Of a DNA stretch of 64,000 nt, positions 6,627 through 53,789 are shown one piece after another. Position 1 is the first letter of the stretch; every line of letters begins with the position of its first letter. The DNA comes from an archaeon (lineage in GTDB: Archaea > Iainarchaeota > Iainarchaeia > Iainarchaeales > GCA-2688035). Under the pieces are notes generated by a model. That model was not told where the DNA came from and searched no databases. It worked only from the letters and a program-made list of their open reading frames with translations. The stretch lies in contig JBAZQI010000001.1 in NCBI GenBank assembly GCA_041645325.1, positions 8,945 to 72,944 on the forward strand, read 5' to 3'. The position numbers and the translations under genes are program-made.

Positions 6627-7052
6627 GTGGTTGCCTTGGATGAATGCATTTTCTGCAAAATCGTTTCGGGAAAAATTCCCGCAACAAAACTTTACGAGGA
6701 CGATTTGGTCCTAAGCTTTCTTGACATAACGCCTGCCGCCAAGGGCCATGCCCTGGTAATTCCGAAAAGGCACTATGCCACGCTTTTGGATATGCCGCAC
6801 GAGGAACTAAAGCAGGTTGCTGAGGCAGTACAAAAAATAGCGGCTGCTACAATGGTTGCCCTGCCTGGCGTTGAAGGCTTTAATGTTTTGCAGTCAAACA
6901 ATGAGGCCGCAGGCCAGGTCATTCCGCACGTGCACTTTCATGTGATTCCAAGGCATAAGGAAGACAATATCAATTTTGCATGGGAACACGGCAAGGCTGA
7001 AATGGAAGAACTGAAAAGGTATGCGGCGCTTGTCAGGCAAAAAATCAGGTGA
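6627..7052 (+). CDS. HIT-family nucleotide hydrolase
   Basis: Histidine-triad motif HVHFHVIPR; N-terminal CIFCKI. Confidence 0.85.
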   Translation: MVALDECIFCKIVSGKIPATKLYEDDLVLSFLDITPAAKGHALVIPKRHYATLLDMPHEELKQVAEAVQKIAAATMVALPGVEGFNVLQSNNEAAGQVIPHVHFHVIPRHKEDNINFAWEHGKAEMEELKRYAALVRQKIR

Positions 7053-7214
7053 TGATATGCCGGATGATGAGCAGGAAGGTTTGAGACAAAAAAGGCAACT
7101 GAAGAACCAGTATGACGATTTTTTGCACAAGATTCAGCAGGAAAAGATGAAAGAGCTTTGGGGCGGCAAAGAAGACGAGGCTTGGGAAAATGCTTGATTC
7201 CTGTGTAGTTCTTA

Positions 7215-8723
7215 CTATTCCGCCTTTTTGAACAAAATTTCGCCTTTCTTCACTTTGGTGCCTGCCTTCAGCAGGTTGAATCTGCATTCTTTCAAAGAGC
7301 CTGCTTTCACGCCTATTTGTGCATTGATTTTTTCGCTTGTTTCAGGCATGAATGGCTGCAAAAGAATTGAAATTATGCGCAGCGAGTCAGCCAAAGAGTA
7401 AAGCGTGCCATTTCGTTCCTTTTCTTCCTGTTTCCAGGGCTGTTTTTCGTTGATGAACTGGTTGCAGGCAGTTACGAATGAAAAGATTTCCGCAAGTGCG
7501 TGGTGCAGTTCCAGTTCTTTCATATGCTTTTCAATTTTTTCAAGATTAAGCTTTTTCTGCAGTTCCTTGTCAATTGTTCCCATTGGCACTGTTCCCTTGC
7601 AGTATTTTTCAATCATCACAATTGTCCTGTTCACCAGATTTCCCAATCCGTTTGCAAGCTCGTTGTTCAGCCTTTCTTTCAGCGCTTCCTCCGAGAAATT
7701 GCCGTCCTGCCCGAAAGGGATTTCCCTTAAAAGGAAGTAGCGCAGGGCATCCACGGTATAGCTGTCTGCAAGCGCTATCGGGTCTATTACAGTGCCCTTG
7801 CTTTTGCTCATCTTTTCCCCGAATTCGGTATTGATGAAGCCGTGCACAATAATGTTTGGCAGTTTAATTCCTAATGCAAGAAGCATTGTTTTCCATATAA
7901 CTTCGTGGTGCCAAACGATATCAGAGCCCACAACGTGTGTCGCCGGCCAGAACTTTTTAAATTTTTGATTTGGATATTCCACCGTGGATAAATAATTTAT
8001 CAGAGCATCAACCCAAATTGCAACGGTTAGGCCTTTGTCAAAAGGCAGTGGGATTCCCCATTTTACTTTTTCCCTTGTTATTGTCAGGTCTTTCAGCGGC
8101 TCTTTTAGCCTGTTTAAAATTTCATTCCTTTTTTTTTCCGGCCAGAGAGAATCTGGATTATTTTGCAGGTCTTCAACGAGTTTTTTTTGATATTTGCTCA
8201 TCCTGAAAAAATAACTTTTTTCCTTTACTCTTTCAGCCTCTTTTTTGTGCACAGGGCACTTTCCTTCAACCAAATCCTTTTCCATGTAAAATGTCTCACA
8301 GTCAACGCAGTAGTTTCCTTCATATTCCCCTTCGTATATATCTCCCTTTTCATAGAGTGCTTTCAGTATTTCATCAACCGTTTTTTCATGCCTCTTTTCG
8401 GTCGTCATTATAAAGTCGTCATAGGAGATGTTGAGAACCTTGCACAGTTCCCTGAACAGGTCGGAGATTTCTTCAACAAACACGCTGGGCTCTTTTCCTG
8501 TTTTTTCTGCGGCTCTCTGGATTTTCAGGCCATGGCAGTCTGTTCCTGTGCTAAAGTACACTTCGTATCCTTCAAGCCTTTTCCAGCGAGCAATGGTGTC
8601 AGTAACTATCTTTTCGTATGCATGCCCCAAATGAAACCGACTTGAGGGATAATCTATGGCCGTACTTATGAAAAAGGTTTTTTGCATATTACAACACTTC
8701 AAATAACAATCCTGGTAAATCAA
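7215..8723 (-). CDS. metG: methionyl-tRNA synthetase (short form)
   Basis: HLGHAY (HIGH) and KMSKS motifs. Zinc knuckle CVDCETF...CPVH. Confidence 0.9.
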   Translation of the reverse strand: MIYQDCYLKCCNMQKTFFISTAIDYPSSRFHLGHAYEKIVTDTIARWKRLEGYEVYFSTGTDCHGLKIQRAAEKTGKEPSVFVEEISDLFRELCKVLNISYDDFIMTTEKRHEKTVDEILKALYEKGDIYEGEYEGNYCVDCETFYMEKDLVEGKCPVHKKEAERVKEKSYFFRMSKYQKKLVEDLQNNPDSLWPEKKRNEILNRLKEPLKDLTITREKVKWGIPLPFDKGLTVAIWVDALINYLSTVEYPNQKFKKFWPATHVVGSDIVWHHEVIWKTMLLALGIKLPNIIVHGFINTEFGEKMSKSKGTVIDPIALADSYTVDALRYFLLREIPFGQDGNFSEEALKERLNNELANGLGNLVNRTIVMIEKYCKGTVPMGTIDKELQKKLNLEKIEKHMKELELHHALAEIFSFVTACNQFINEKQPWKQEEKERNGTLYSLADSLRIISILLQPFMPETSEKINAQIGVKAGSLKECRFNLLKAGTKVKKGEILFKKAE

Positions 8724-8757
8724 TAAAAAGGAAACTTTGCTTATAAAGCAAATGCCT

Positions 8758-9534
8758 TTACCTGGTGTTCATGTTGATGTTCCCAAATCTTCTGTTTCTT
8801 TCATCGATGTTTGATATTGCTGCATTTAGCGCTCTCGTTTTCGCACGGTGTTGAATGTAAGGCTTTAACGAATTAAGCAATTCAACAAGGTAAAATTTTT
8901 TGCTTATTACCAAACTCCAGTAATCTCCATTGTGCACGTATCCTTCGCGGGTAACATATCCTTTCCTTGCACCAAGACACAACTTTCTGCATTTTATCCC
9001 GAATTTTGGAAGTGTTTCAAGTATTTTTTCTAATAATGCTTTGTCATAATTTCCCAAAGCATAAACTGCCTGCCCTTTGGAAATGCCAATGTGCCCCTCT
9101 GCGTCTGTAAATCCCGCTAAAAAGGAGAAGAAAACATCTTCTTTTTGGAAGATCCAATCTGGGGCAACTTTACTTAATAAGAAGCTAAAACTTAAGGGGA
9201 GACCAACTCCGATACTTTTGGCTCCTCGTTTGTTTTTCTTTGAGATCCAAAGTGTAGAATACTTTTGGAACATGCTTTGAATCAGTTGCAGTTGTTCTTC
9301 TTTCGTTGTGCCGCATTCAATTGAGATTGTTTCACTATTTTTACCGCCTGTTCTTGCTCTCAAATCACCTATCCTAAAGCCAATTAGGTAAGCCTTTTCC
9401 AACAAATTGCCGCTAAAATCCTTCCGAGGATAAATCATTTGAGCACCCGCAGGGGTTCTTGTTTTTATCCCGTACTCTATCAATTTCTGTGCACAGTGCT
9501 TCTTGAAAATCCATATAGCTTTTCTATTTCCCAA
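8758..9534 (-). pseudogene. LAGLIDADG homing endonuclease domain (two motifs), 3' part of a frameshifted HTHx4-LAGLIDADG gene
   Basis: LIGFRIGDLRAR and LAGFTDAEGHIGISKG motifs. Its first residues (KKHCAQKLIEYGIKTR) complete the fourth HTH repeat of the upstream ORF in another frame. Confidence 0.7.
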
Positions 9535-10151
9535 CTGGAAAGCCTTTTCTTGCCGTAGAGTTCCAGCAGGGTTTCTTTACTTGGCACATTTTGATTTGGG
9601 CTTCTGGGCAGTCTTGCCTTGATTCCAAACTGCTTAAGCCTTTTCCAGATAGTAGCTTGACAGCAGTTGTATTTCTCAGCTATTTCAAAGGTTGTCAAAC
9701 CCTGTTTTATGTAAAGTTCAATTAGTTCCTTTTTGGTTATTTTTACAAAGCGGCCGTTTGAAGGCTTGGTCTTTATTTTATATTCCCTAAGCCTGTTGAG
9801 AATTGTAGTCATTTTGCAGTCAAACACTTTGGCTATTTCGCTTGGGGCAAGTTTTCTCTTTTCGTATAATTCAATCAAGTCCTCTTTTGGGATTTTTATC
9901 TTCTTTTTCTTTACAAAAAGTTTCACTGCTTCAGCAGTTGTTCTGGGCTTAATGCCATAAAATTTCAGCCAGTAGCAGATTGAGCCGGCGGTTCGGTCAA
10001 AAAGTTTCCCTATTTCTGATGTAGGACGTTTCTGCCTAGTGTACAACTCTTCCAACACTTCTTTCGAAATTTCAGCTTTCACTCTCCCACCGCACAAAAT
10101 ACGGTTTTGCCGTTTAAAATCGCTTTGAAAGAGCAGGTTTCCGCTAATCAC
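9480..10151 (-). pseudogene. four tandem ~45-aa helix-turn-helix repeats, 5' part of the frameshifted homing-endonuclease gene
   Basis: Repeats KE(V/D)L(E/I)ELY..(K/R)....EI.K......TI..RLK.(Y/F)GIK(P/T/A)R appear 4 times. GTG start overlaps the stop of a 34-codon upstream ORF (GTGA). Confidence 0.6.
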
Positions 10152-10252
10152 TGAAACCCCTCCCTATTCATGTTTTGCAGCAAGTCGTCAAAGGAAAAGC
10201 CGTCGCTGAATGGATTGCCTTTTGTTTCTGAAAGTTTTTGAGAAAAACTCAT
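10148..10252 (-). CDS. small acidic ORF (34 aa) translationally coupled to the HTH-LAGLIDADG gene
   Basis: MSFSQKLSETKGNPFSDGFSFDDLLQNMNREGFQ. Its TGA stop overlaps the downstream GTG start. Confidence 0.25.
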   Translation of the reverse strand: MSFSQKLSETKGNPFSDGFSFDDLLQNMNREGFQ

Positions 10253-10690
10253 CCATCATCACCTCCATTCAGAATGAATTTTTTCGTGGACGTCTCTGCT
10301 GCTTTTGGAGGCATTAAATCCTTTGTCCTGAGCGCAGCGAAGGCAAAGGTTTAAGCCGAGAAAAGCAGAGTCCTAAGAAAAAATTCGAAATTGGATGTGA
10401 TGGGGTTTTAATCAAACCCTTTTATTCCTTTCTGGTAAGGGTGCAGTTCGCTTTCCAAATCCTTTCTCCTTTGGCCGGTTTGCTTTCGCAATTGCTTACC
10501 TATAATTATTTCGGCGCACTAATACTTAAAGGGAATTTTTTCATACCCAACACGAATTTTTTGGTTCCCGACACAATAGCCGGCGGAATGCCATATTTTT
10601 TTTGGAATAAGGGAATTACCGGAAGCCTGCTCTCTTGGGGTGTGCTTTTAAAGGGAAAAAAGGGTATTTTTTTTATGGTGGGGGGAGAAA

Positions 10691-13600
10691 ATGGCGCTTG
10701 AGGAAGATGCTGATGATGAATCTGATTTTTCCCCTGATTTTTCTGCAAAAGCGGGGAAGGCTGGTGCGAAGCAAATTTCCCCTGATGAGGGAAGCGAAAG
10801 CCCCTATGTTTCCAAGTTTCTTGAATTTTTTGAGGCCAATTACAAGAAGGAATTGGAGCGGCTTGTTGAAAACTATCCTGACAAGAGAAGCCTTGAGGTT
10901 GACTTCAGGCTGCTTGAGCAGTTTGACATAGAGCTTGCGGACGCGATTTTGGACTCTCCTGACCTGCTGCTTGAAGCCGCAAAGGACGCGATTGAGCAGA
11001 TTGAGGTTCCTGCGCTTGAAATTGAAATCTTTTCTCCGCATGTGCGCTTTTTCAACATCCCGAAAGAGCATGAGCCTTTGGTGAGGGACATAAGCGCTGC
11101 ACAGCTTGGAAAGTTTATTGCGGTTGAAGGTGTTGTAAGGCAGATTACCACTGTGCTGCCAAAGCTCAAGGTTGCGGTGTGGAAATGCAGGCACTGCGGC
11201 AACACTTACGAGAAAGTGCAGGATGACCAGCAGCTCAAAATGCCTTCTTTCTGCGAATGCAGGCACAGGGACTTTGACCTTGTGCCGGAGCAATCCGAGT
11301 TCATTGACAGCCAGCGTGTTGAAATACAGGAGCCCTTGGAAAGGCTGAAGGGAAACGAGCAGGCCTCTACATTGCAGGTATACATTGCCGACGACCTTGT
11401 CAACAGGATAAGTGCAGGGGACAAGACAAGATTTACAGGGGTACTGAGGCTTGCGGTGCCGGACAAGAAGAAAACAGTTTACGGCAGGTACCTTGAGGCC
11501 TTTCATTTGGAGGAAACCCAGCGCGAATTCCTTGACGTTGAGATATCGCCTGAAGAGGAAAAGGAAATAAAGGATTTGGCGTCAAGCCCTGACATTTATG
11601 AAACGCTTATAAAAAGCATTGCGCCCGCAATTTACGGCCACGAAAAGGTCAAGGAATCAATCATCCTGCAGTTGTTCGGCGGCGTCAAGAAGAACCTGCC
11701 CGGCAACCAGACTGTGAGGGGAAACATCCACGTTTTGTTGGTGGGTGACCCTGGTTGCCTTGTTGCTGATGAAAGGATTGTGCTTGGCAATGGTGCAATT
11801 GAAAAAATCGGCAGCATTGGTTCAAGGCACTTGGAGGAAATAAACCTGCAGGTGCTCACAGGGCAGGGTGGCGCGAAAAGGGATACAGCAACTGTTTTCC
11901 ATTATTACAAGAGCCAGCCTGTGATTGAAATAGTTACAGAGAGTGGAAAAAGCATCAAGGGAACGCCAAACCACCCTCTTCTGTGCATTTCAAAAGAAAA
12001 CAGCCGTGTTGCAAGAAATTGGAAGCGCCTTGACGAATTCAGAGAAGGGGACAAGGTTGCGGTAGTGACTGGAATTCCCTGCACGATTACCCGTTACATT
12101 GAGACTGGCTTTAACCAATTGCCGCCTATTGGCGGGAGCAAATTCAAGGGTTCCTTACCTGAAAAGGTTACACCGGAGCTGGCTTCTTTTTTGGGTTATA
12201 TGGTTGGAGACGGCTGGGTTAGAAACTATGAAACGGCCTTTGTTGTGGCGGATAATGAAAAAGAGCTGTTGGAGCCGCTTCTCAAAATGTGTGAAAACCT
12301 GTTTGCGATAAAATCCTCTGTTGTAAGAAGAAAGCTTGAGGGAAGAAAAGTCTGGCTGAATTATGCAAGCATTTATTCGAAAAGCATTTCGCAAAACTTG
12401 CTCTTTTTGAGGGAAAAGCGTGTTCCAAACCCCATACTTAAGTCAGGCAACAAGGTTGTGGCATCCTTTTTGAAATGGCTTTTTACCGCAGACGGTTGCG
12501 TTTTCAACAATGGGCGGGGGAGGAGAGCTGTTTCATTTAAGGCAAAAAATATTGAACTGCTAAGGGACCTGCAAGTGCTTCTCCTCAGGTTTGGCATTCA
12601 CGGCAGAATAACTGGGAATTCACTTCAAATAAGGCGGGGCAGGGACATCATAAAGTTTGCGAAAAAAATCGGGTTTGCTTCAAAAAAGAAACGGGCTACA
12701 CTAAAAAAACTCGCGGAAGAAGCAAAGTCTTTTGCAGGGTTTAATTCCCAACGAAGCGAAAAAATAGTAAAAATTATTCAGCATGAGCCGGAAGATGTTT
12801 TTGATATTGAAGTTCCTGGCAGTCATCGTTTCATAGCAAACGGTGTCATCTCGCACAACACAGGCAAATCTCAGCTTCTTCAGGCCGCAAACACCATTGC
12901 GCCCAAAAGCATTTACACCGCGGGAAAAACCACGAGCGGCGTTGGATTGTGCATTGCGCCTGATTCTTTGGTGCTGAATGGCAATGGCTTTAAGAGGATT
13001 GAAGACTTTGTTGAAGAAAATTTCTGCAATGAAAAAGCGTTTGAGGAAATTCCCGGCGCATGGTCAAATATTTTTGATGGAAAGAGCCTTTCTTTGGACA
13101 ATGGGCTAAAAGCCGAAGAGGGAAAAATTTCCAAGATTTGGAGGCTAAAAGCCCCTGAAAAAATGTTTAGGGTGAAGACAAGGCTCGGAAAGGAGCTTGA
13201 GCTCACGCCGCATACTTCTCTTGTTAGACTAAAAGAGGGCAATGTTGGCTGGGTTGAGGCGCAGGAAATAAGCGAAGGCGATTTCATTGCCTGCGCAAGA
13301 AAACTGCCTGAAGGCGGCAGAAAAAACATTCCTGCAATCGGCATAATTGCGCATGACAAAAACGTGCGGATAAAGGACAATGTTGCAGTGCAATTGAAGG
13401 AAATAACCGACGGGCTTATGGCAAAGTACGGTTCTTTGCAGGAAATAGCCAAAAGCATTGGCAAAAGCAGGAATACGCTTTATTCAATCAGGAACAAAAA
13501 ATTCTATCACGGCATTTCTTTGAAGAATTTTGTTGAACTTGGCAAAGAGGCAGGATTTTCATTGGAAGCGCTTTCAGGGTGTGTTTCCACGATTTTCATA

Positions 13601-15577
13601 AGCTATGGAAAGGAAATGAAAATTCCGCGATATTTGGATAACGAGCGGCTTGCTTATTTGGCCGGCTTGGCTTTGGGTGACGGCAGCCTGTATGAGGCCG
13701 ATAGAAGTGCGTCTTTGAGGATTTTCAGCGCTTCACCGCAGCTTTTGCAGGAAGTTGACAACATTGCCCTGGATTTGTTTGGCTTGGAAGCTGAGAAGAT
13801 TGATGATGGAGTCAGGGTTCCTGCCAGGAGAATAAAATTCAGGGCTGTTTGTGAGCTTTTGAAGGCATTTGGCCTGGATAAAAGGAAAGGCAAAATAAGA
13901 ATTTCGCATCTTGCCTCGGAAATGCCTAACAATATTCTTTCAAAGCTCTTGCAGGGCTTGTTTGACACCGACGGCTGGGTTTGCAGTGGCAAAGACAGTC
14001 ACTGCATTGGCATGACAACGATTAGCAGGGATTTGGCGCAAAGCGTGCAGCTTTCTTTGCTAAAATTCGGCATCAGAAGCAAATTAAGGGAAAGAAAGAA
14101 AGCCGGCGTGCTTGCCGTTGGCAGAAAAATCTCTGTCACAAGCAGGCACAATCAGTATTGCATTGAAATAATGGGCAAAGAAAGCGTTGGGCTGTTCAAA
14201 GAGCACATCGGATTCAACCTTGCGCGAAAAAAAGAGAAATTGCAGGAACTTGCAACAAGCGTTCCAAAAGGCAACACAAACATTGATGTTGTTCCGCAAA
14301 TTCAAAGCCTGCTGAAAGCGGAGAAAGCAGAGTGGATTTACAGCAGTGGCAGGTCAAACATTTCAAAGGAAAAGCTGCAAAGGCTTGCAGGCGAGCAAGC
14401 ACTTGGCAATTCATTGTTGAAGCAATTGGCGGAATCTGATGTGATGTGGGAGCAAGTTGCGGAAAAGGTTTGCATAGAGTCGGCATACCCTTTTGTTTAT
14501 GATTTCTCGGTTGAAAAAAACCATAATTTTGTTGCAAACGGAATTTTTGTGCACAACACTGCATCTGCAGTCAAGGACGATTTTGGCGAGGGCGGCTGGA
14601 CATTGAAGGCTGGTGCGCTTGTTTTGGCCAGCGGCGGGGTTTGCATGGTGGATGAGCTTGACAAGATGGAGGCAGAGGACAGGAGCGCAATGCACGAGGC
14701 AATGGAACAGGGCATGATTTCAATAGCAAAGGCTGGCATTGTCACAAGGTTCAAGTCCGACACAAGCATCTTGGCCGCGGCAAACCCAAAGATGTCAAGG
14801 TTTGAGCCCTACCAGCCTTTCATTGAGCAGATTAATTTGCCGGCTTCGTTGATTTCAAGGTTTGACCTTTTCTTCATGATAAAGGACGTTTTGGACAAGA
14901 CAAAGGACGAGGCAATCACGGCGCACATCCTCAAAACGCACAAGGGCGGGGAAATGATTTCACAGTACAAGCAAAAGGGCAGGGTCATGCTGAAACAAGA
15001 CCAGGATGACATTGACCTTATTTCCTCGCCGCCGATACTGCCGGAATTGCTGGGAAAATACATTTCCTATGCAAGGCAAAACGTTTTCCCGATAATGAGC
15101 AAGGAGGCAATACAGCTCATTGGTGATTTTTACATCGGGCTGAGGGACATTGGGCGAAAAGAGGGAAGCTATGCGGCAACCCACAGGCAGCTTGAGGGCC
15201 TTGTAAGGCTTTCAGAGGCAAGCGCAAGGGTGCGCTTAAGCGACATTGCGGAAAAAGAGGACGCTGAAAGGGCAATAAGGCTTGTGAAGGCTTCTTTGAG
15301 CGATGTTGTCACAGACCCTGAAACAGGCAAGATTGATTATGACATCATTATGACCGGGCAGACTCACACCCAAGTTACGAACATGCGCAAAATCCTCACC
15401 ATCCTGAGGGAAAAGGCGAAAGAGCAGGACAATGTGCCGTTGCAGGATGTGCTCAACGAAGCTTCTGTGCAGGGAATTGACGCGGAAAGGGCGCGTGACC
15501 TCATAGCAAAGCTCGAAAAAAACGGCGAGCTCTACAGGCCAAGGCACAATTTCCTCAAGCCGACGAGAAACGAGTAA
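10691..15577 (+). CDS. mcm: MCM replicative helicase precursor carrying two inteins (mature about 724 aa)
   Basis: N-terminal OB/zinc (CRHCGN..CECRH). Walker A GDPG|intein|TGKSQLL. Walker B/arginine-finger region GALVLASGGVCMVDELDKM after the second intein. C-terminal wHTH. Confidence 0.9.
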   Translation: MALEEDADDESDFSPDFSAKAGKAGAKQISPDEGSESPYVSKFLEFFEANYKKELERLVENYPDKRSLEVDFRLLEQFDIELADAILDSPDLLLEAAKDAIEQIEVPALEIEIFSPHVRFFNIPKEHEPLVRDISAAQLGKFIAVEGVVRQITTVLPKLKVAVWKCRHCGNTYEKVQDDQQLKMPSFCECRHRDFDLVPEQSEFIDSQRVEIQEPLERLKGNEQASTLQVYIADDLVNRISAGDKTRFTGVLRLAVPDKKKTVYGRYLEAFHLEETQREFLDVEISPEEEKEIKDLASSPDIYETLIKSIAPAIYGHEKVKESIILQLFGGVKKNLPGNQTVRGNIHVLLVGDPGCLVADERIVLGNGAIEKIGSIGSRHLEEINLQVLTGQGGAKRDTATVFHYYKSQPVIEIVTESGKSIKGTPNHPLLCISKENSRVARNWKRLDEFREGDKVAVVTGIPCTITRYIETGFNQLPPIGGSKFKGSLPEKVTPELASFLGYMVGDGWVRNYETAFVVADNEKELLEPLLKMCENLFAIKSSVVRRKLEGRKVWLNYASIYSKSISQNLLFLREKRVPNPILKSGNKVVASFLKWLFTADGCVFNNGRGRRAVSFKAKNIELLRDLQVLLLRFGIHGRITGNSLQIRRGRDIIKFAKKIGFASKKKRATLKKLAEEAKSFAGFNSQRSEKIVKIIQHEPEDVFDIEVPGSHRFIANGVISHNTGKSQLLQAANTIAPKSIYTAGKTTSGVGLCIAPDSLVLNGNGFKRIEDFVEENFCNEKAFEEIPGAWSNIFDGKSLSLDNGLKAEEGKISKIWRLKAPEKMFRVKTRLGKELELTPHTSLVRLKEGNVGWVEAQEISEGDFIACARKLPEGGRKNIPAIGIIAHDKNVRIKDNVAVQLKEITDGLMAKYGSLQEIAKSIGKSRNTLYSIRNKKFYHGISLKNFVELGKEAGFSLEALSGCVSTIFISYGKEMKIPRYLDNERLAYLAGLALGDGSLYEADRSASLRIFSASPQLLQEVDNIALDLFGLEAEKIDDGVRVPARRIKFRAVCELLKAFGLDKRKGKIRISHLASEMPNNILSKLLQGLFDTDGWVCSGKDSHCIGMTTISRDLAQSVQLSLLKFGIRSKLRERKKAGVLAVGRKISVTSRHNQYCIEIMGKESVGLFKEHIGFNLARKKEKLQELATSVPKGNTNIDVVPQIQSLLKAEKAEWIYSSGRSNISKEKLQRLAGEQALGNSLLKQLAESDVMWEQVAEKVCIESAYPFVYDFSVEKNHNFVANGIFVHNTASAVKDDFGEGGWTLKAGALVLASGGVCMVDELDKMEAEDRSAMHEAMEQGMISIAKAGIVTRFKSDTSILAAANPKMSRFEPYQPFIEQINLPASLISRFDLFFMIKDVLDKTKDEAITAHILKTHKGGEMISQYKQKGRVMLKQDQDDIDLISSPPILPELLGKYISYARQNVFPIMSKEAIQLIGDFYIGLRDIGRKEGSYAATHRQLEGLVRLSEASARVRLSDIAEKEDAERAIRLVKASLSDVVTDPETGKIDYDIIMTGQTHTQVTNMRKILTILREKAKEQDNVPLQDVLNEASVQGIDAERARDLIAKLEKNGELYRPRHNFLKPTRNE
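11756..12859 (+). mobile_element. intein 1 (368 aa) inserted in the MCM P-loop, with LAGLIDADG homing-endonuclease domain
   Basis: Begins with Cys directly after GDPG and ends ...VISHN followed by T. Internal motifs LGYMVGDGWV and LKWLFTADGCV. Confidence 0.85.
12950..14557 (+). mobile_element. intein 2 (536 aa) in MCM AAA+ core, with LAGLIDADG domain
   Basis: Begins CIAPDSLVL... and ends ...GIFVHN followed by T. Motifs LAGLALGDGSL and LQGLFDTDGWV. Confidence 0.85.
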
Positions 15578-53352: not shown

Positions 53353-53769
53353 TCATTTTAGGTAAATGACTTTTTTTCCATTCTTAATCTTTGCCCTTTT
53401 TGCGTATTTTTCCAGGTAGTGCACCGTGCTCTTTGAAATGCCTGTAACGCGCTCCACTTCGCGCAGGCTCTGGTAGTCCTTTCTCATTTCAAGCGCCTGC
53501 TGCATTTTCTCCAAAGGCATTGAAATCGGCCTTCCCGGCCTTGCCACTGTTTCCAAAACAACGCCTTTTTGCCAGAGCAATGCAACGCTTTTCTTCGGCA
53601 TTCTTGCAATGCAGCTTTTGCTTGCGCTCGCAGTTTCAAGCATTGCGCATTTTTTCAGGATTCCTTCAAGCAATTCCTTTTTTACCGGCCTGACAAAATG
53701 CAGTTTTGCCGCTTCCTTCGGAATATCCCTGGCGTCCATTCCCGGCAAAACAGAAAAAATCATGCACAA
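53353..53769 (-). CDS. HTH DNA-binding protein (resolvase/sigma-70 region 4-like HTH at C-terminus)
   Basis: SLREVERVTGISKSTVHYLEKY helix-turn-helix. Confidence 0.5.
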   Translation of the reverse strand: MCMIFSVLPGMDARDIPKEAAKLHFVRPVKKELLEGILKKCAMLETASASKSCIARMPKKSVALLWQKGVVLETVARPGRPISMPLEKMQQALEMRKDYQSLREVERVTGISKSTVHYLEKYAKRAKIKNGKKVIYLK

Positions 53770-53789
53770 ATATTAGGACAAAGCCTTAT

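What the first reader, a model, noticed from the sequence alone, without database searches (positions are those of the whole stretch)
8758..10252. Free-standing HTHx4-LAGLIDADG homing-endonuclease gene split by a frameshift, preceded by a coupled mini-ORF and followed by metG
ORF 9480..10151 encodes four tandem roughly 45-aa HTH modules. Its fourth module is completed in another frame by the first residues of ORF 8758..9534 (…KKHCAQKLIEYGIKTR matches the module ending RLREYKIKTK / RLKQFGIKAR). That ORF then encodes a two-motif LAGLIDADG nuclease (LIGFRIGDLRAR; LAGFTDAEGHIG). A single-nucleotide frameshift near 9500-9520 therefore separates the DNA-binding array from the nuclease: a pseudogene, a sequencing error, or a programmed frameshift regulating nuclease expression. 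The composite sits directly upstream of metG on the same strand and divergent from mcm, whose product hosts two LAGLIDADG inteins. A 34-codon acidic ORF overlaps its start by GTGA.
Basis: partly seen in the sequence, partly recalled or inferred. Interest (0 to 1): 0.6.

Follow-up and report, generated by a model that had tools for sequence, protein, structure and literature searches.

The report
Frameshifted homing-endonuclease cassette at metG
This is a recently broken copy of a selfish DNA-cutting-enzyme gene that, in hundreds of ultra-small archaea and bacteria, always sits directly in front of the methionyl-tRNA synthetase gene and carries part of that essential gene along when it spreads.

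Summary
Two overlapping minus-strand ORFs (9480..10151 and 8758..9534) are one gene for a protein with four HTH modules and a two-motif LAGLIDADG nuclease. It is split by loss of one G (relatives CACAGAAAGTTG, window CACAGAAA-TTG, between 9484 and 9483). Intact 464-470-aa orthologues (79-81% identity) occupy the same mcm/metG/HIT locus.

The family is large: 556 clusters at 50% identity. It occurs in DPANN archaea and CPR bacteria. In about 68 of 80 genome loci it abuts or overlaps the metG start.

It behaves as a mobile cassette. Close relatives either lack it or keep only a 33-aa relic. A collinear relative without it has an unrelated 5' two-thirds of metG. About ten loci keep a truncated old metG 5' end upstream of the nuclease gene, cut near the HIGH motif.

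So the element is a nuclease gene plus a replacement 5' part of metG, preceded here by a conserved hairpin that sequesters the Shine-Dalgarno sequence and by a leader mini-ORF. The window copy is most likely a young pseudogene (dN/dS about 0.1-0.18, no other defect).

Not found in the searched literature; the nearest precedent is the fungal mitochondrial mORFs. A sister cassette type carries a conserved +1 frameshift inside the metG HIGH motif.

The parts
10258..10401 (-). Conserved long hairpin (leader). Its base pairs an anti-SD (AUCACAUCC, about 10401-10392) with the SD GGAGGUGAU (about 10267-10258) of the mini-ORF.
   Evidence: The fold energy is -52 kcal/mol with z -6.1. The arms are 94-100% identical in L001, L002, L038, L041, L045 and L090, although the HEG proteins there are only 36-81% identical. 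The consensus structure has 44 pairs and 96.3% of cells paired. Four pairs show double changes against 1.0 in shuffles (0/500). There is no Rfam family. The hairpin is absent from the HEG-less relative L087.
10148..10252 (-). Leader mini-ORF (34 codons, MSFSQKLSETKGNPFSDGFSFDDLLQNMNREGFQ). Its stop overlaps the longest HEG start as GTGA.
   Evidence: Homologous 32-44-codon ORFs starting MSFS.., each preceded by GGAGGTGAT, occur in L001, L038, L045, L097 and L098. An in-frame 2-codon indel is tolerated. L002 has an unrelated mini-ORF at the same place.
9480..10151 (-). 5' half of the HEG gene: an N-terminal tail plus HTH modules 1-3 and most of module 4. It ends at a premature TGA (9480-9482) caused by the frameshift. 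The public annotation starts it at GTG 10082.
9483..9484 (-). Site of the 1-nt deletion (loss of the G of Lys codon AAG) that splits the gene.
   Evidence: DNA alignment A4 with L001 and L002. The protein alignment gives the consensus SRSTVHRKLKEYGIK.
8758..9483 (-). 3' half of the HEG gene in the -1 frame: the end of HTH module 4 and a single-chain LAGLIDADG nuclease core. Motif 1 is at 9361-9387 (Asp263) and motif 2 at 9094-9120 (Glu352).
   Evidence: Pfam LAGLIDADG_3. The AF2 model and Foldseek hits to PI-PfuI and I-DmoI. D263, D350, A351 and G353 are invariant and E352 is at least 90% conserved in the family.
7752..8687 (-). 5' two-thirds of metG (codons 1 to about 312, including the HIGH and KMSKS motifs). 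This is the part that travels with the HEG (cassette-type allele, R-F-H-L-G-H).
   Evidence: It has no nucleotide similarity and about 45-48% aa identity to the collinear HEG-less relative L087. It is 77-83% identical to the HEG-bearing relatives L001 and L002.
7215..7751 (-). 3' third of metG (anticodon-binding domain), of host-lineage type.
   Evidence: It is 78.7% nt and 79% aa identical to L087, the same level as mcm and HIT.

Best explanation
**What the element is.** The window carries a newly inactivated copy of a mobile homing-endonuclease cassette that is specific for the 5' end of metG. The cassette has four parts:
1. A leader: a long hairpin that sequesters the Shine-Dalgarno sequence of a short leader ORF, which is translationally coupled to the nuclease gene.
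2. A gene for a single-chain LAGLIDADG nuclease extended N-terminally by 1-4 HTH modules (four here).
3. A replacement copy of the 5' portion of metG with its own start codon.

**Inferred mechanism.**
- The nuclease cuts nuclease-free metG alleles in or near the DNA encoding the HIGH signature.
- Repair copies the nuclease gene together with the donor's 5' part of metG.
- The right-hand crossover falls just after the KMSKS region. The recipient's own 5' end is displaced upstream as a decaying relic.
- This yields mosaic MetRS genes, including archaeal/bacterial chimeras.

**State of the window copy.** One G was lost in HTH module 4. The array and the nuclease are now in different frames. This is the early decay stage of the homing cycle.

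**Shown:** architecture, fold, retained catalytic residues, the family-wide metG linkage, presence/absence/relic polymorphism, mosaic metG, upstream metG relics, and the conserved hairpin and leader ORF.

**Inferred:** cleavage activity, the exact target, regulation by the hairpin, and that the frameshift is biological.
For: - **Intact orthologues in the same locus.** P0001 and P0002 are 81% and 79% identical.
- **Deletion pinpointed** by DNA alignment.
- **Purifying selection on the HEG.** dN/dS is 0.11-0.14 overall and about 0.18 on the window branch. All family-invariant residues are present, so the inactivation is recent.
- **metG linkage.** In about 68 of 80 genome loci from DPANN and CPR, the HEG stop lies -80 to +70 nt from the metG start. 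Four loci are in-frame fusions.
- **Discordant identities.** HEG and MetRS identities disagree, and HEGs sit in front of different MetRS types.
- **Patchiness among MetRS relatives of 57-65% identity.** L083, L090 and L091 have the HEG. L085 and L087 lack it. L088 retains only 33 C-terminal codons overlapping the metG start.
- **Mosaic metG.** L087 is collinear with the window at 75-79% nt identity, except for the HEG region and metG codons 1 to about 312.
- **Repeated replacement.** Within one host clade (MetRS C-terminal part 74-79% identical), four different N-terminal parts occur (45-83% identical).
- **Upstream relics of the metG 5' end**, truncated around HIGH, occur in L010 (E 5e-15), L073 (4e-11), L057, L068, L077, L013, L032, L039, L042 and L063. 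The false-positive rate is about 0.03 per locus, and a stricter form of the start motif gives 0 reverse-strand hits in all 93 loci.
- **Inter-domain chimeras.** MetRS of CPR loci L016, L009, L012, L015 and L060 has an N-terminal part 56-64% identical to the archaeal cassette alleles, but only 41-47% identical to other CPR MetRS. Their C-terminal part is CPR-like. The gene context of L016 is bacterial, with metG followed by tatD.
- **Nucleotide identity.** The HEG 5' part is 85-93% identical between the window, L001 and L002, against 70-78% for metG and HIT.
- **Fold** matches PI-PfuI and I-DmoI.
- **Leader hairpin and mini-ORF** are conserved with covariation.
Against: - No read data were available, so the deletion could be an assembly artefact.
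- No upstream metG relic was found in the window, L001 or L002. For this particular copy, the 'inserted into metG' history is inferred from relatives.
- Nearly all retrieved family members are intact and tightly coupled or fused to metG. That pattern would also fit a host-beneficial role.
- The cleavage site is unknown. The KMSKS-proximal breakpoint may only reflect where homology suffices for crossover.
- No relatives were found in viral contigs, so no vector for inter-domain spread is identified.
- Organism labels of many MAG contigs are unreliable.
Confidence: 0.75

Rival explanations
1. The frameshift is an assembly or sequencing error, or a minor strain variant fixed in the consensus. The organism would then carry an intact, active 464-aa nuclease gene.
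For: There is a single defect. All invariant residues are intact and dN/dS on the window branch is low. The source is a short-read metagenome contig, ERZ27249422 k141_267931.
Against: The deletion is not in a long homopolymer: GAAAGTTG became GAAATTG. Consensus indels are rare in short-read assemblies. Decayed and missing copies exist in relatives, so inactivation is expected biology.
Confidence: 0.13
2. A programmed -1 ribosomal frameshift (or transcriptional slippage) joins the HTH array to the nuclease and limits nuclease dosage.
For: The two frames overlap, and the nuclease frame is -1 relative to the HTH frame. Tight control of a toxic nuclease would be plausible.
Against: All close and distant homologues are single uninterrupted ORFs. 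The site C-AGA-AAT-TGA is not an X-XXY-YYZ slippery heptamer. The run of A is only three bases long. Relatives have a G at the missing position.
Confidence: 0.03
3. The protein is a domesticated DNA-binding factor (WhiA-like) that regulates or assists metG, not a selfish nuclease. The linkage to metG would then be functional.
For: The stop/start overlap with metG is tight and there are four in-frame fusions. Most copies are intact under purifying selection. Multiple HTH modules are present. An upstream palindromic element is conserved and could be an operator.
Against: Both catalytic acidic positions are conserved (D263 invariant, E352 at least 90%), unlike WhiA or maturases. Presence is patchy among close relatives and a relic copy exists. 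HEG lineages swap at one locus. metG is mosaic and upstream metG relics exist. More distant members sit next to unrelated genes such as lepA, a long class-I aaRS that is not MetRS, yebC and nifU.
Confidence: 0.09

Closest known systems
Single-chain archaeal LAGLIDADG homing endonucleases (I-DmoI; nuclease domain of PI-PfuI; I-OnuI family)
   Same: It has the two-motif monomeric LAGLIDADG fold, with Asp and Glu at the ends of the two motifs (GD-, AEG as in I-DmoI). These are the best structural matches, and Pfam LAGLIDADG_3 scores above its cut-off.
   Different: Those enzymes are encoded in rRNA introns or inteins and have no HTH array. This one is free-standing, has 1-4 N-terminal HTH modules, and is tied to a protein-coding gene's 5' end. 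Sequence identity is only 12-20%.
Free-standing homing endonucleases of T-even phages (Seg and Mob proteins; 'intronless homing' with co-conversion of flanking markers). Recalled from established literature, not read here.
   Same: The nuclease gene lies between or next to conserved genes. It is inferred to cut the nuclease-free allele nearby and to spread by repair that co-converts flanking gene sequence, giving mosaic neighbours.
   Different: Those are GIY-YIG or HNH enzymes in phage genomes. Here it is a LAGLIDADG enzyme in cellular chromosomes of DPANN archaea and CPR bacteria. It carries a complete replacement 5' gene segment and leaves a relic of the host's segment.
Fungal mitochondrial mobile ORF elements (mORFs): Allomyces macrogynus atp6; Glomus atp6, atp9, cox2, nad3 (PMC3630166)
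   Same: The element is an endonuclease ORF plus a foreign duplicated piece of the host gene that replaces the native piece. The native piece persists as an unexpressed relic. The ORF is sometimes in phase with the host gene. Hybrid genes arise by horizontal transfer.
   Different: This is the mirror image: the 5' end is replaced here, the C-terminal end there. The replicons are archaeal and bacterial chromosomes rather than mitochondria. The target is an aminoacyl-tRNA synthetase. The replaced tract is about 930 nt. Spread crosses domains.
WhiA (bacterial LAGLIDADG-derived transcription factor with an HTH domain). Recalled from established literature.
   Same: It combines a LAGLIDADG scaffold with HTH DNA-binding domains.
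   Different: WhiA has lost the catalytic acidic residues, has a C-terminal HTH, and is uniformly conserved in its lineages. Here the acidic residues are kept and the distribution is patchy.

Membership tests
LAGLIDADG homing endonuclease (single-chain) | Two LAGLIDADG motifs, each ending in a conserved acidic residue | tested here: met
   The motifs are LIGFRIGD263L and LAGFTDAE352G. D263 is invariant and E352 at least 90% conserved across 26-28 family members.
LAGLIDADG homing endonuclease (single-chain) | Tandem alpha-beta-beta-alpha-beta-beta-alpha fold | tested here: met
   The AF2 model has pLDDT 82.6, with the core at 84-98. Foldseek gives PI-PfuI at 1.9e-9 and I-DmoI, I-OnuI and I-AniI at about 1e-7 to 1e-6.
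LAGLIDADG homing endonuclease (single-chain) | Profile match above the curated threshold | tested here: met
   PF14528 LAGLIDADG_3 scores 32.3 bits against a cut-off of 22.5.
LAGLIDADG homing endonuclease (single-chain) | Site-specific double-strand cleavage of a long target | not testable with these tools
   This needs a biochemical assay. The target is only inferred to be the HIGH-motif region of metG.
Free-standing homing endonuclease gene (intronless homing) | Not embedded in an intron or intein | tested here: met
   There is no Rfam hit in 8500-10800 and no intein or Hint domain in Pfam. The gene has its own start and stop.
Free-standing homing endonuclease gene (intronless homing) | Sporadic presence or absence at a fixed genomic site among close relatives, with decayed copies | tested here: met
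   L083, L090 and L091 have it. L085 and L087 lack it. L088 keeps a relic. The window copy is frameshifted.
Free-standing homing endonuclease gene (intronless homing) | Co-conversion of flanking host sequence | tested here: met
   Comparison with L087 shows a sharp switch from no nucleotide similarity to 79% identity at metG codon about 312. Four N-terminal types sit on one C-terminal type.
mORF-type gene-segment-replacing element | Endonuclease ORF accompanied by a foreign copy of part of the host gene, with the native part left as a relic | tested here: inconclusive
   This is met in relatives: there are relics upstream of the HEG in about 10 loci, of a different allele type from the functional 5' end. 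In the window itself the foreign 5' part is evident, but no relic was found.
WhiA-like domesticated LAGLIDADG/HTH regulator | Catalytic acidic residues lost; uniformly conserved single-copy host gene | tested here: not met
   The acidic residues are retained. The distribution is patchy and HEG lineages turn over at one locus.
Programmed ribosomal frameshift gene | Frameshift conserved in orthologues and located at a slippery site | tested here: not met
   Orthologues are uninterrupted. There is no X-XXY-YYZ heptamer at the junction.

The most novel reading that the evidence does not exclude
The family could be a previously undescribed cross-domain gene-drive system for an essential translation gene. 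The nuclease would cleave the DNA encoding the HIGH signature of metG. It would spread together with a replacement catalytic-domain segment and create archaeal/bacterial chimeric MetRS.

In one cassette lineage ('type B', 8 independent loci), the protected allele carries a 1-nt insertion exactly at that point: CAT-CTT-[C/T]-GGC-CAC. The essential synthetase could then be made only by programmed +1 ribosomal frameshifting at a CUU/AUU-CGG site, which resembles Ty1 CUU-AGG-C and prfB CUU-UGA-C. The conserved hairpin that sequesters the Shine-Dalgarno sequence, plus the leader ORF, would throttle nuclease expression.
Probability: 0.35. Interest if true: 0.85.

Novelty: new variant of a known kind. 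Interest (0 to 1): 0.62.

Why it matters
- **A new habitat for this kind of element.** Homing endonucleases are known from introns, inteins and phage intergenic regions. A large family (hundreds of 50%-identity clusters) dedicated to one aminoacyl-tRNA synthetase gene, in the reduced genomes of DPANN archaea and CPR bacteria, was not found in the searched literature.
- **A concrete mechanism for horizontal and mosaic evolution of aaRS genes.** The cassette appears to replace the catalytic two-thirds of MetRS and to cross the archaea/bacteria boundary.
- **A cassette design that protects the host gene.** A nuclease gene plus a spare 5' gene segment lets a nuclease invade an essential ORF without an intron or intein.
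- **Practical value.** Natural LAGLIDADG scaffolds with modular HTH extensions (1-4 modules) are of interest for meganuclease engineering.
- **A possible recoding event.** The associated +1 site in metG would be a rare case of recoding in an essential archaeal gene.
- **Annotation.** The two window ORFs should be merged as one pseudogene. In type-B loci metG is currently mis-annotated as starting at an internal codon.

Tried and rejected
- **Link to the mcm inteins: rejected.** mcm in L001, L002 and L087 has no inteins, yet the HEG-metG unit or the empty site is at the same place.
- **Structured RNA, intron or tRNA in 8500-10800: none.** No Rfam or ARAGORN hit.
- **Hairpin as a repeated MITE: rejected for this window.** It is single-copy in 64 kb.
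- **Mini-ORF.** I first judged it non-conserved from L001 and L002 alone. I revised this after finding homologous MSFS... ORFs in L038, L045, L097 and L098.
- **Relic of the metG 5' end upstream of the window HEG: none found.** I searched all three frames of 10100-10700.
- **Viral carriers: none found.** The scan of 2.9 M viral contigs returned no relative.
- **Phe-for-Pro change (R-F-H-L-G-H) as HEG-type-specific immunity: not supported.** It follows the MetRS N-terminal lineage rather than the HEG type.
- **Literature searches: no prior description.** I searched LAGLIDADG + methionyl-tRNA synthetase, free-standing HEG + DPANN or aaRS, and HEG + Patescibacteria/DPANN.
- **N greater than C identity in distant comparisons is not evidence of transfer on its own,** because the catalytic domain is generally better conserved. 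I used only C >> N cases and the CPR-versus-CPR control.
Full report
**1. Observation**

On the minus strand, ORF 9480..10151 (223 aa) and ORF 8758..9534 (258 aa) overlap in different frames.
- The first ORF holds four ~45-aa repeats. They resemble each other far beyond chance: local scores are 10-20 sd above shuffles and 0/500 shuffles reach them. They hit several HTH Pfam families.
- The second ORF passes the Pfam LAGLIDADG_3 threshold.
- Inserting one base gives a 464-aa protein. Its junction, SRSTVHR-K-LIEYGIKTR, equals the consensus of homologues.
- DNA alignment with the two closest relatives shows the exact lesion. They read CACAGAAAGTTG and CACAGAAAGCTA; the window reads CACAGAAA-TTG. 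The G of a Lys codon is lost between window 9484 and 9483.
- An AlphaFold2 model (pLDDT 82.6) shows four three-helix modules followed by a double alpha-beta-beta-alpha-beta-beta-alpha core.
- The best PDB matches are PI-PfuI, I-DmoI, E-DreI and I-OnuI.
- The acidic residues that end the two motifs are conserved: D263 is invariant and E352 is at least 90% conserved.

**2. Status of the window copy**

- The window comes from ENA assembly ERZ27249422, contig k141_267931. The same deletion is present there, and the gene is called as 200-aa and 226-aa proteins.
- Orthologues P0001 (81%) and P0002 (79%) are intact and lie in the same locus: mcm, then HEG-metG, then HIT on the opposite strand.
- dN/dS between the three copies is 0.11-0.14. 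The window branch is about 0.18 (dN 0.043, dS 0.24).
- No other family-invariant residue is altered.
- The break is therefore recent or artefactual.
- A programmed frameshift is very unlikely. There is no slippery heptamer and no relative shares the arrangement.

**3. The link to metG defines the family**

- The family is large. The first search gave 507 hits. An exhaustive profile search gave 556 clusters at 50% identity with E <= 1e-30.
- Members carry 1, 2, 3 or 4 HTH modules, giving proteins of about 275, 325, 370-400 and 440-470 aa.
- A scan of one genome per species returned at least 152 relatives. I examined 80 loci, roughly half labelled DPANN archaea and half CPR/Patescibacteria.
- In about 68 of the 80, metG starts -80 to +70 nt from the HEG stop on the same strand. 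In four the two genes are one reading frame. Proteins P0072 and P0084 are such fusions.
- The CPR assignment is supported by gene context for L016 and L024. In both, metG is followed by tatD. L016 also has a LeuRS whose editing domain matches Pfam's leucyl-tRNA synthetase editing-domain family.
- More distant members (32-39% identity) sit next to other genes: lepA, a 1160-aa class-I aaRS, yebC, nifU and leuD.

**4. Evidence for mobility**

- Ten metagenome loci have MetRS 57-65% identical to the window's.
  - Three carry the HEG.
  - L085 and L087 have none within 5 kb of upstream sequence.
  - L088 retains only the last 33 codons of the HEG, overlapping the metG start.
- L087 is collinear with the window: mcm, a 227-aa ORF, metG, HIT.
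  - It is 75-79% identical in nucleotides over mcm, HIT and the last third of metG (window 7751..7254).
  - It has no nucleotide similarity over metG codons 1 to about 312, where aa identity is about 45-48%.
  - The switch lies 5-17 codons after KMSKS.
- Within the host clade defined by a 74-79% identical MetRS C-terminal part and the same neighbours, four different N-terminal parts occur:
  - with 'type A' HEGs (window, L001, L002);
  - with 'type B' HEGs, 37-38% identical to type A (L038, L041, L045);
  - with another HEG (L078);
  - with none (L087).
- The 5' part of the HEG is 85-93% identical in nucleotides among the window, L001 and L002. metG and HIT are 70-78% identical.

**5. The element is inserted into metG and brings a spare 5' segment**

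- About ten loci have, upstream of the HEG, a start codon followed by the beginning of MetRS (..KFYITTAIDY..).
- This fragment breaks off around the HIGH motif:
  - L057 after ..PHL;
  - L068 after ..PIH;
  - L039, L042 and L077 just before PH;
  - L073 and L010 at 12 and 18 codons after it.
- Chance is excluded. The loose pattern has 0.027 expected hits per upstream window. A stricter form of the start motif has 0 hits on the reverse strands of all 93 loci.
- In L010, L077 and L073 the relic is of a different allele type from the functional 5' end downstream. The functional 5' part is therefore foreign and the relic is the host's.
- This gives a natural left homology arm for homing, and it explains the mosaic genes.
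- Several CPR loci (L016, L009, L012, L015, L060) have a chimeric MetRS.
  - The N-terminal part is 56-64% identical to archaeal cassette alleles, but 41-47% identical to other CPR MetRS.
  - The C-terminal part is closest to CPR (up to 56% with L027).
  - This indicates inter-domain transfer of the cassette.
- The window, L001 and L002 have no recognisable relic.

**6. The leader**

- A hairpin of about 145 nt lies between mcm and the HEG (window 10258..10401; -52 kcal/mol, z -6.1).
- Its arms are 94-100% identical next to type-A and type-B HEGs, whose proteins are under 40% identical. It is absent from the HEG-less L087.
- Its base pairs an anti-SD (AUCACCUCC) with the GGAGGUGAU that precedes the mini-ORF in every locus examined.
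- Structure statistics:
  - 44 pairs, with 96.3% of cells paired;
  - four pairs with compensatory double changes, against 1.0 in shuffles (0/500);
  - slid controls reach only 39-57% paired.
- The mini-ORF (MSFSQK.SE.KGNP.S.GFSF...) is kept open in six loci, with an in-frame indel.
- In the window, L001 and L098 its stop overlaps the HEG start.
- I infer that translation of the nuclease is throttled by SD sequestration and coupling to the leader ORF. This step is inference.

**7. Comparison with known systems and novelty**

- The enzyme is a member of the LAGLIDADG family by motifs, profile and fold.
- Its lifestyle matches free-standing phage homing endonucleases, with intronless homing and co-conversion. 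That comparison rests on established knowledge, not on papers read here.
- The closest architectural precedent is the fungal mitochondrial mORFs. These combine an endonuclease ORF with a foreign C-terminal gene segment and leave the native segment as a relic (PMC3630166).
- The present element is the 5' mirror image of that design. It lives in archaeal and CPR chromosomes, targets an aaRS gene and crosses domains.
- Searches of the held literature found no description of it.
- It is not WhiA-like, because the catalytic residues are kept and the distribution is patchy.

**8. By-product: a +1 site in metG**

- In eight independent loci with type-B HEGs, metG reads M..KFYITTAIDYPSGKPH[L/I] in one frame and GHAYEK... 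in the +1 frame.
  - The loci are L038, L041, L045, L047, L057, L094, L097 and L098.
  - L094 is confirmed by two further assemblies of different sequencing runs.
- The junction is CAT-CTT-[C/T]-GGC-CAC, or CAT-ATT-C-GGG-CAC in L094.
- The 0-frame codon after the shift is the rare CGG in 7 of 8 loci.
- Both segments evolve as coding in their own frames. Variable columns by codon position are 5/4/9 upstream and 12/9/29 downstream.
- In L057 the upstream relic ends at exactly this CTT.
- This points to the HIGH codons as the insertion or cleavage point.
- It also suggests programmed +1 frameshifting in an essential gene. That remains unproven.

**9. Verdict**

- The window copy itself is an ordinary young pseudogene of a homing endonuclease.
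- The family it reveals is a new variant of a known kind of selfish element: a metG-specific cassette that replaces part of the gene. It has several testable and unusual properties.

Noticed in passing
L038 ~9190-9200; L041 ~3330; L045 ~9255; L047 ~3443; L057 ~9167; L094 ~4318; L097 ~4190; L098 ~4252: metG downstream of 'type-B' HEGs needs a +1 shift inside the HIGH motif: ..CCC CAT CTT [C/T] GGC CAC.., or CAT ATT C GGG in L094. This holds in 8 independent loci. Both frames evolve as coding, and the 0-frame codon is the rare CGG in 7 of 8. Gene callers hide the shift by starting metG at an internal TTG. It may be programmed +1 frameshifting, a scar at the nuclease cleavage site, or both.
   Followed up: partly
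window 10258..10401 (also L001 3359-3494, L002 5717-5837, L038 7546-7659, L041 1842-1954, L045 7761-7898, L090 3521-3628): A highly conserved structured hairpin, with no Rfam family, pairs an anti-SD with the SD of the leader mini-ORF. It is much better conserved than the surrounding genes. It is shared by cassettes whose nucleases are under 40% identical.
   Followed up: yes
L038 7780..7932 and L097 2757..2906: Type-B cassettes carry an extra conserved 49-50-codon hydrophobic small ORF (..P.GLEM.GF.WKSTE..YY.GFC.GI..W..P) between the leader mini-ORF and the nuclease gene.
   Followed up: no
window 10691..15577; L004 and L057 mcm: The window mcm carries two LAGLIDADG inteins. The mcm of close relatives L001, L002, L087 and L045 has none. 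In L004 and L057, the mcm tblastn matches break at residues 342 and 419, and at 342, respectively. This suggests insertions, so intein content probably varies independently of the metG cassette.
   Followed up: partly
window ~7018..7242: About 200 nt between the metG stop and HIT has no counterpart in L001 or L002 (11-15% identity in the alignment). It contains a 58-codon ORF on the plus strand (7021..7197) and a 46-aa gene called on the minus strand in the public record.
   Followed up: no
window 53362..53772 (minus strand): There is weak similarity (25.7% over 140 aa, E 3e-4) to the HTH-repeat part of the nuclease. This may be another protein with tandem HTH modules.
   Followed up: no
L076 (lepA), L079 (1160-aa class-I aaRS), L067 (yebC-like), L066 (nifU/iscU-like), L054 (leuD-like): More distant members of the HTH-LAGLIDADG family (32-39% identity) abut the start of other conserved genes. 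The family may have diversified to other targets using the same upstream-of-start arrangement.
   Followed up: partly
L013, L033, L043, L056; proteins P0072, P0084, P0196: In-frame fusions of the nuclease ORF with MetRS give single ORFs of about 800 aa. These are either read-through products or gene-calling across an internal metG start.
   Followed up: no
L016, L009, L012, L015, L060, L025: CPR-labelled genomes have a MetRS whose catalytic part is archaeal-cassette-like and whose anticodon-binding part is CPR-like. These are apparent inter-domain chimeras. Many MAG titles in the set (for example 'Gammaproteobacteria', 'Methanosarcinales', 'Chloroflexi') look unreliable.
   Followed up: partly
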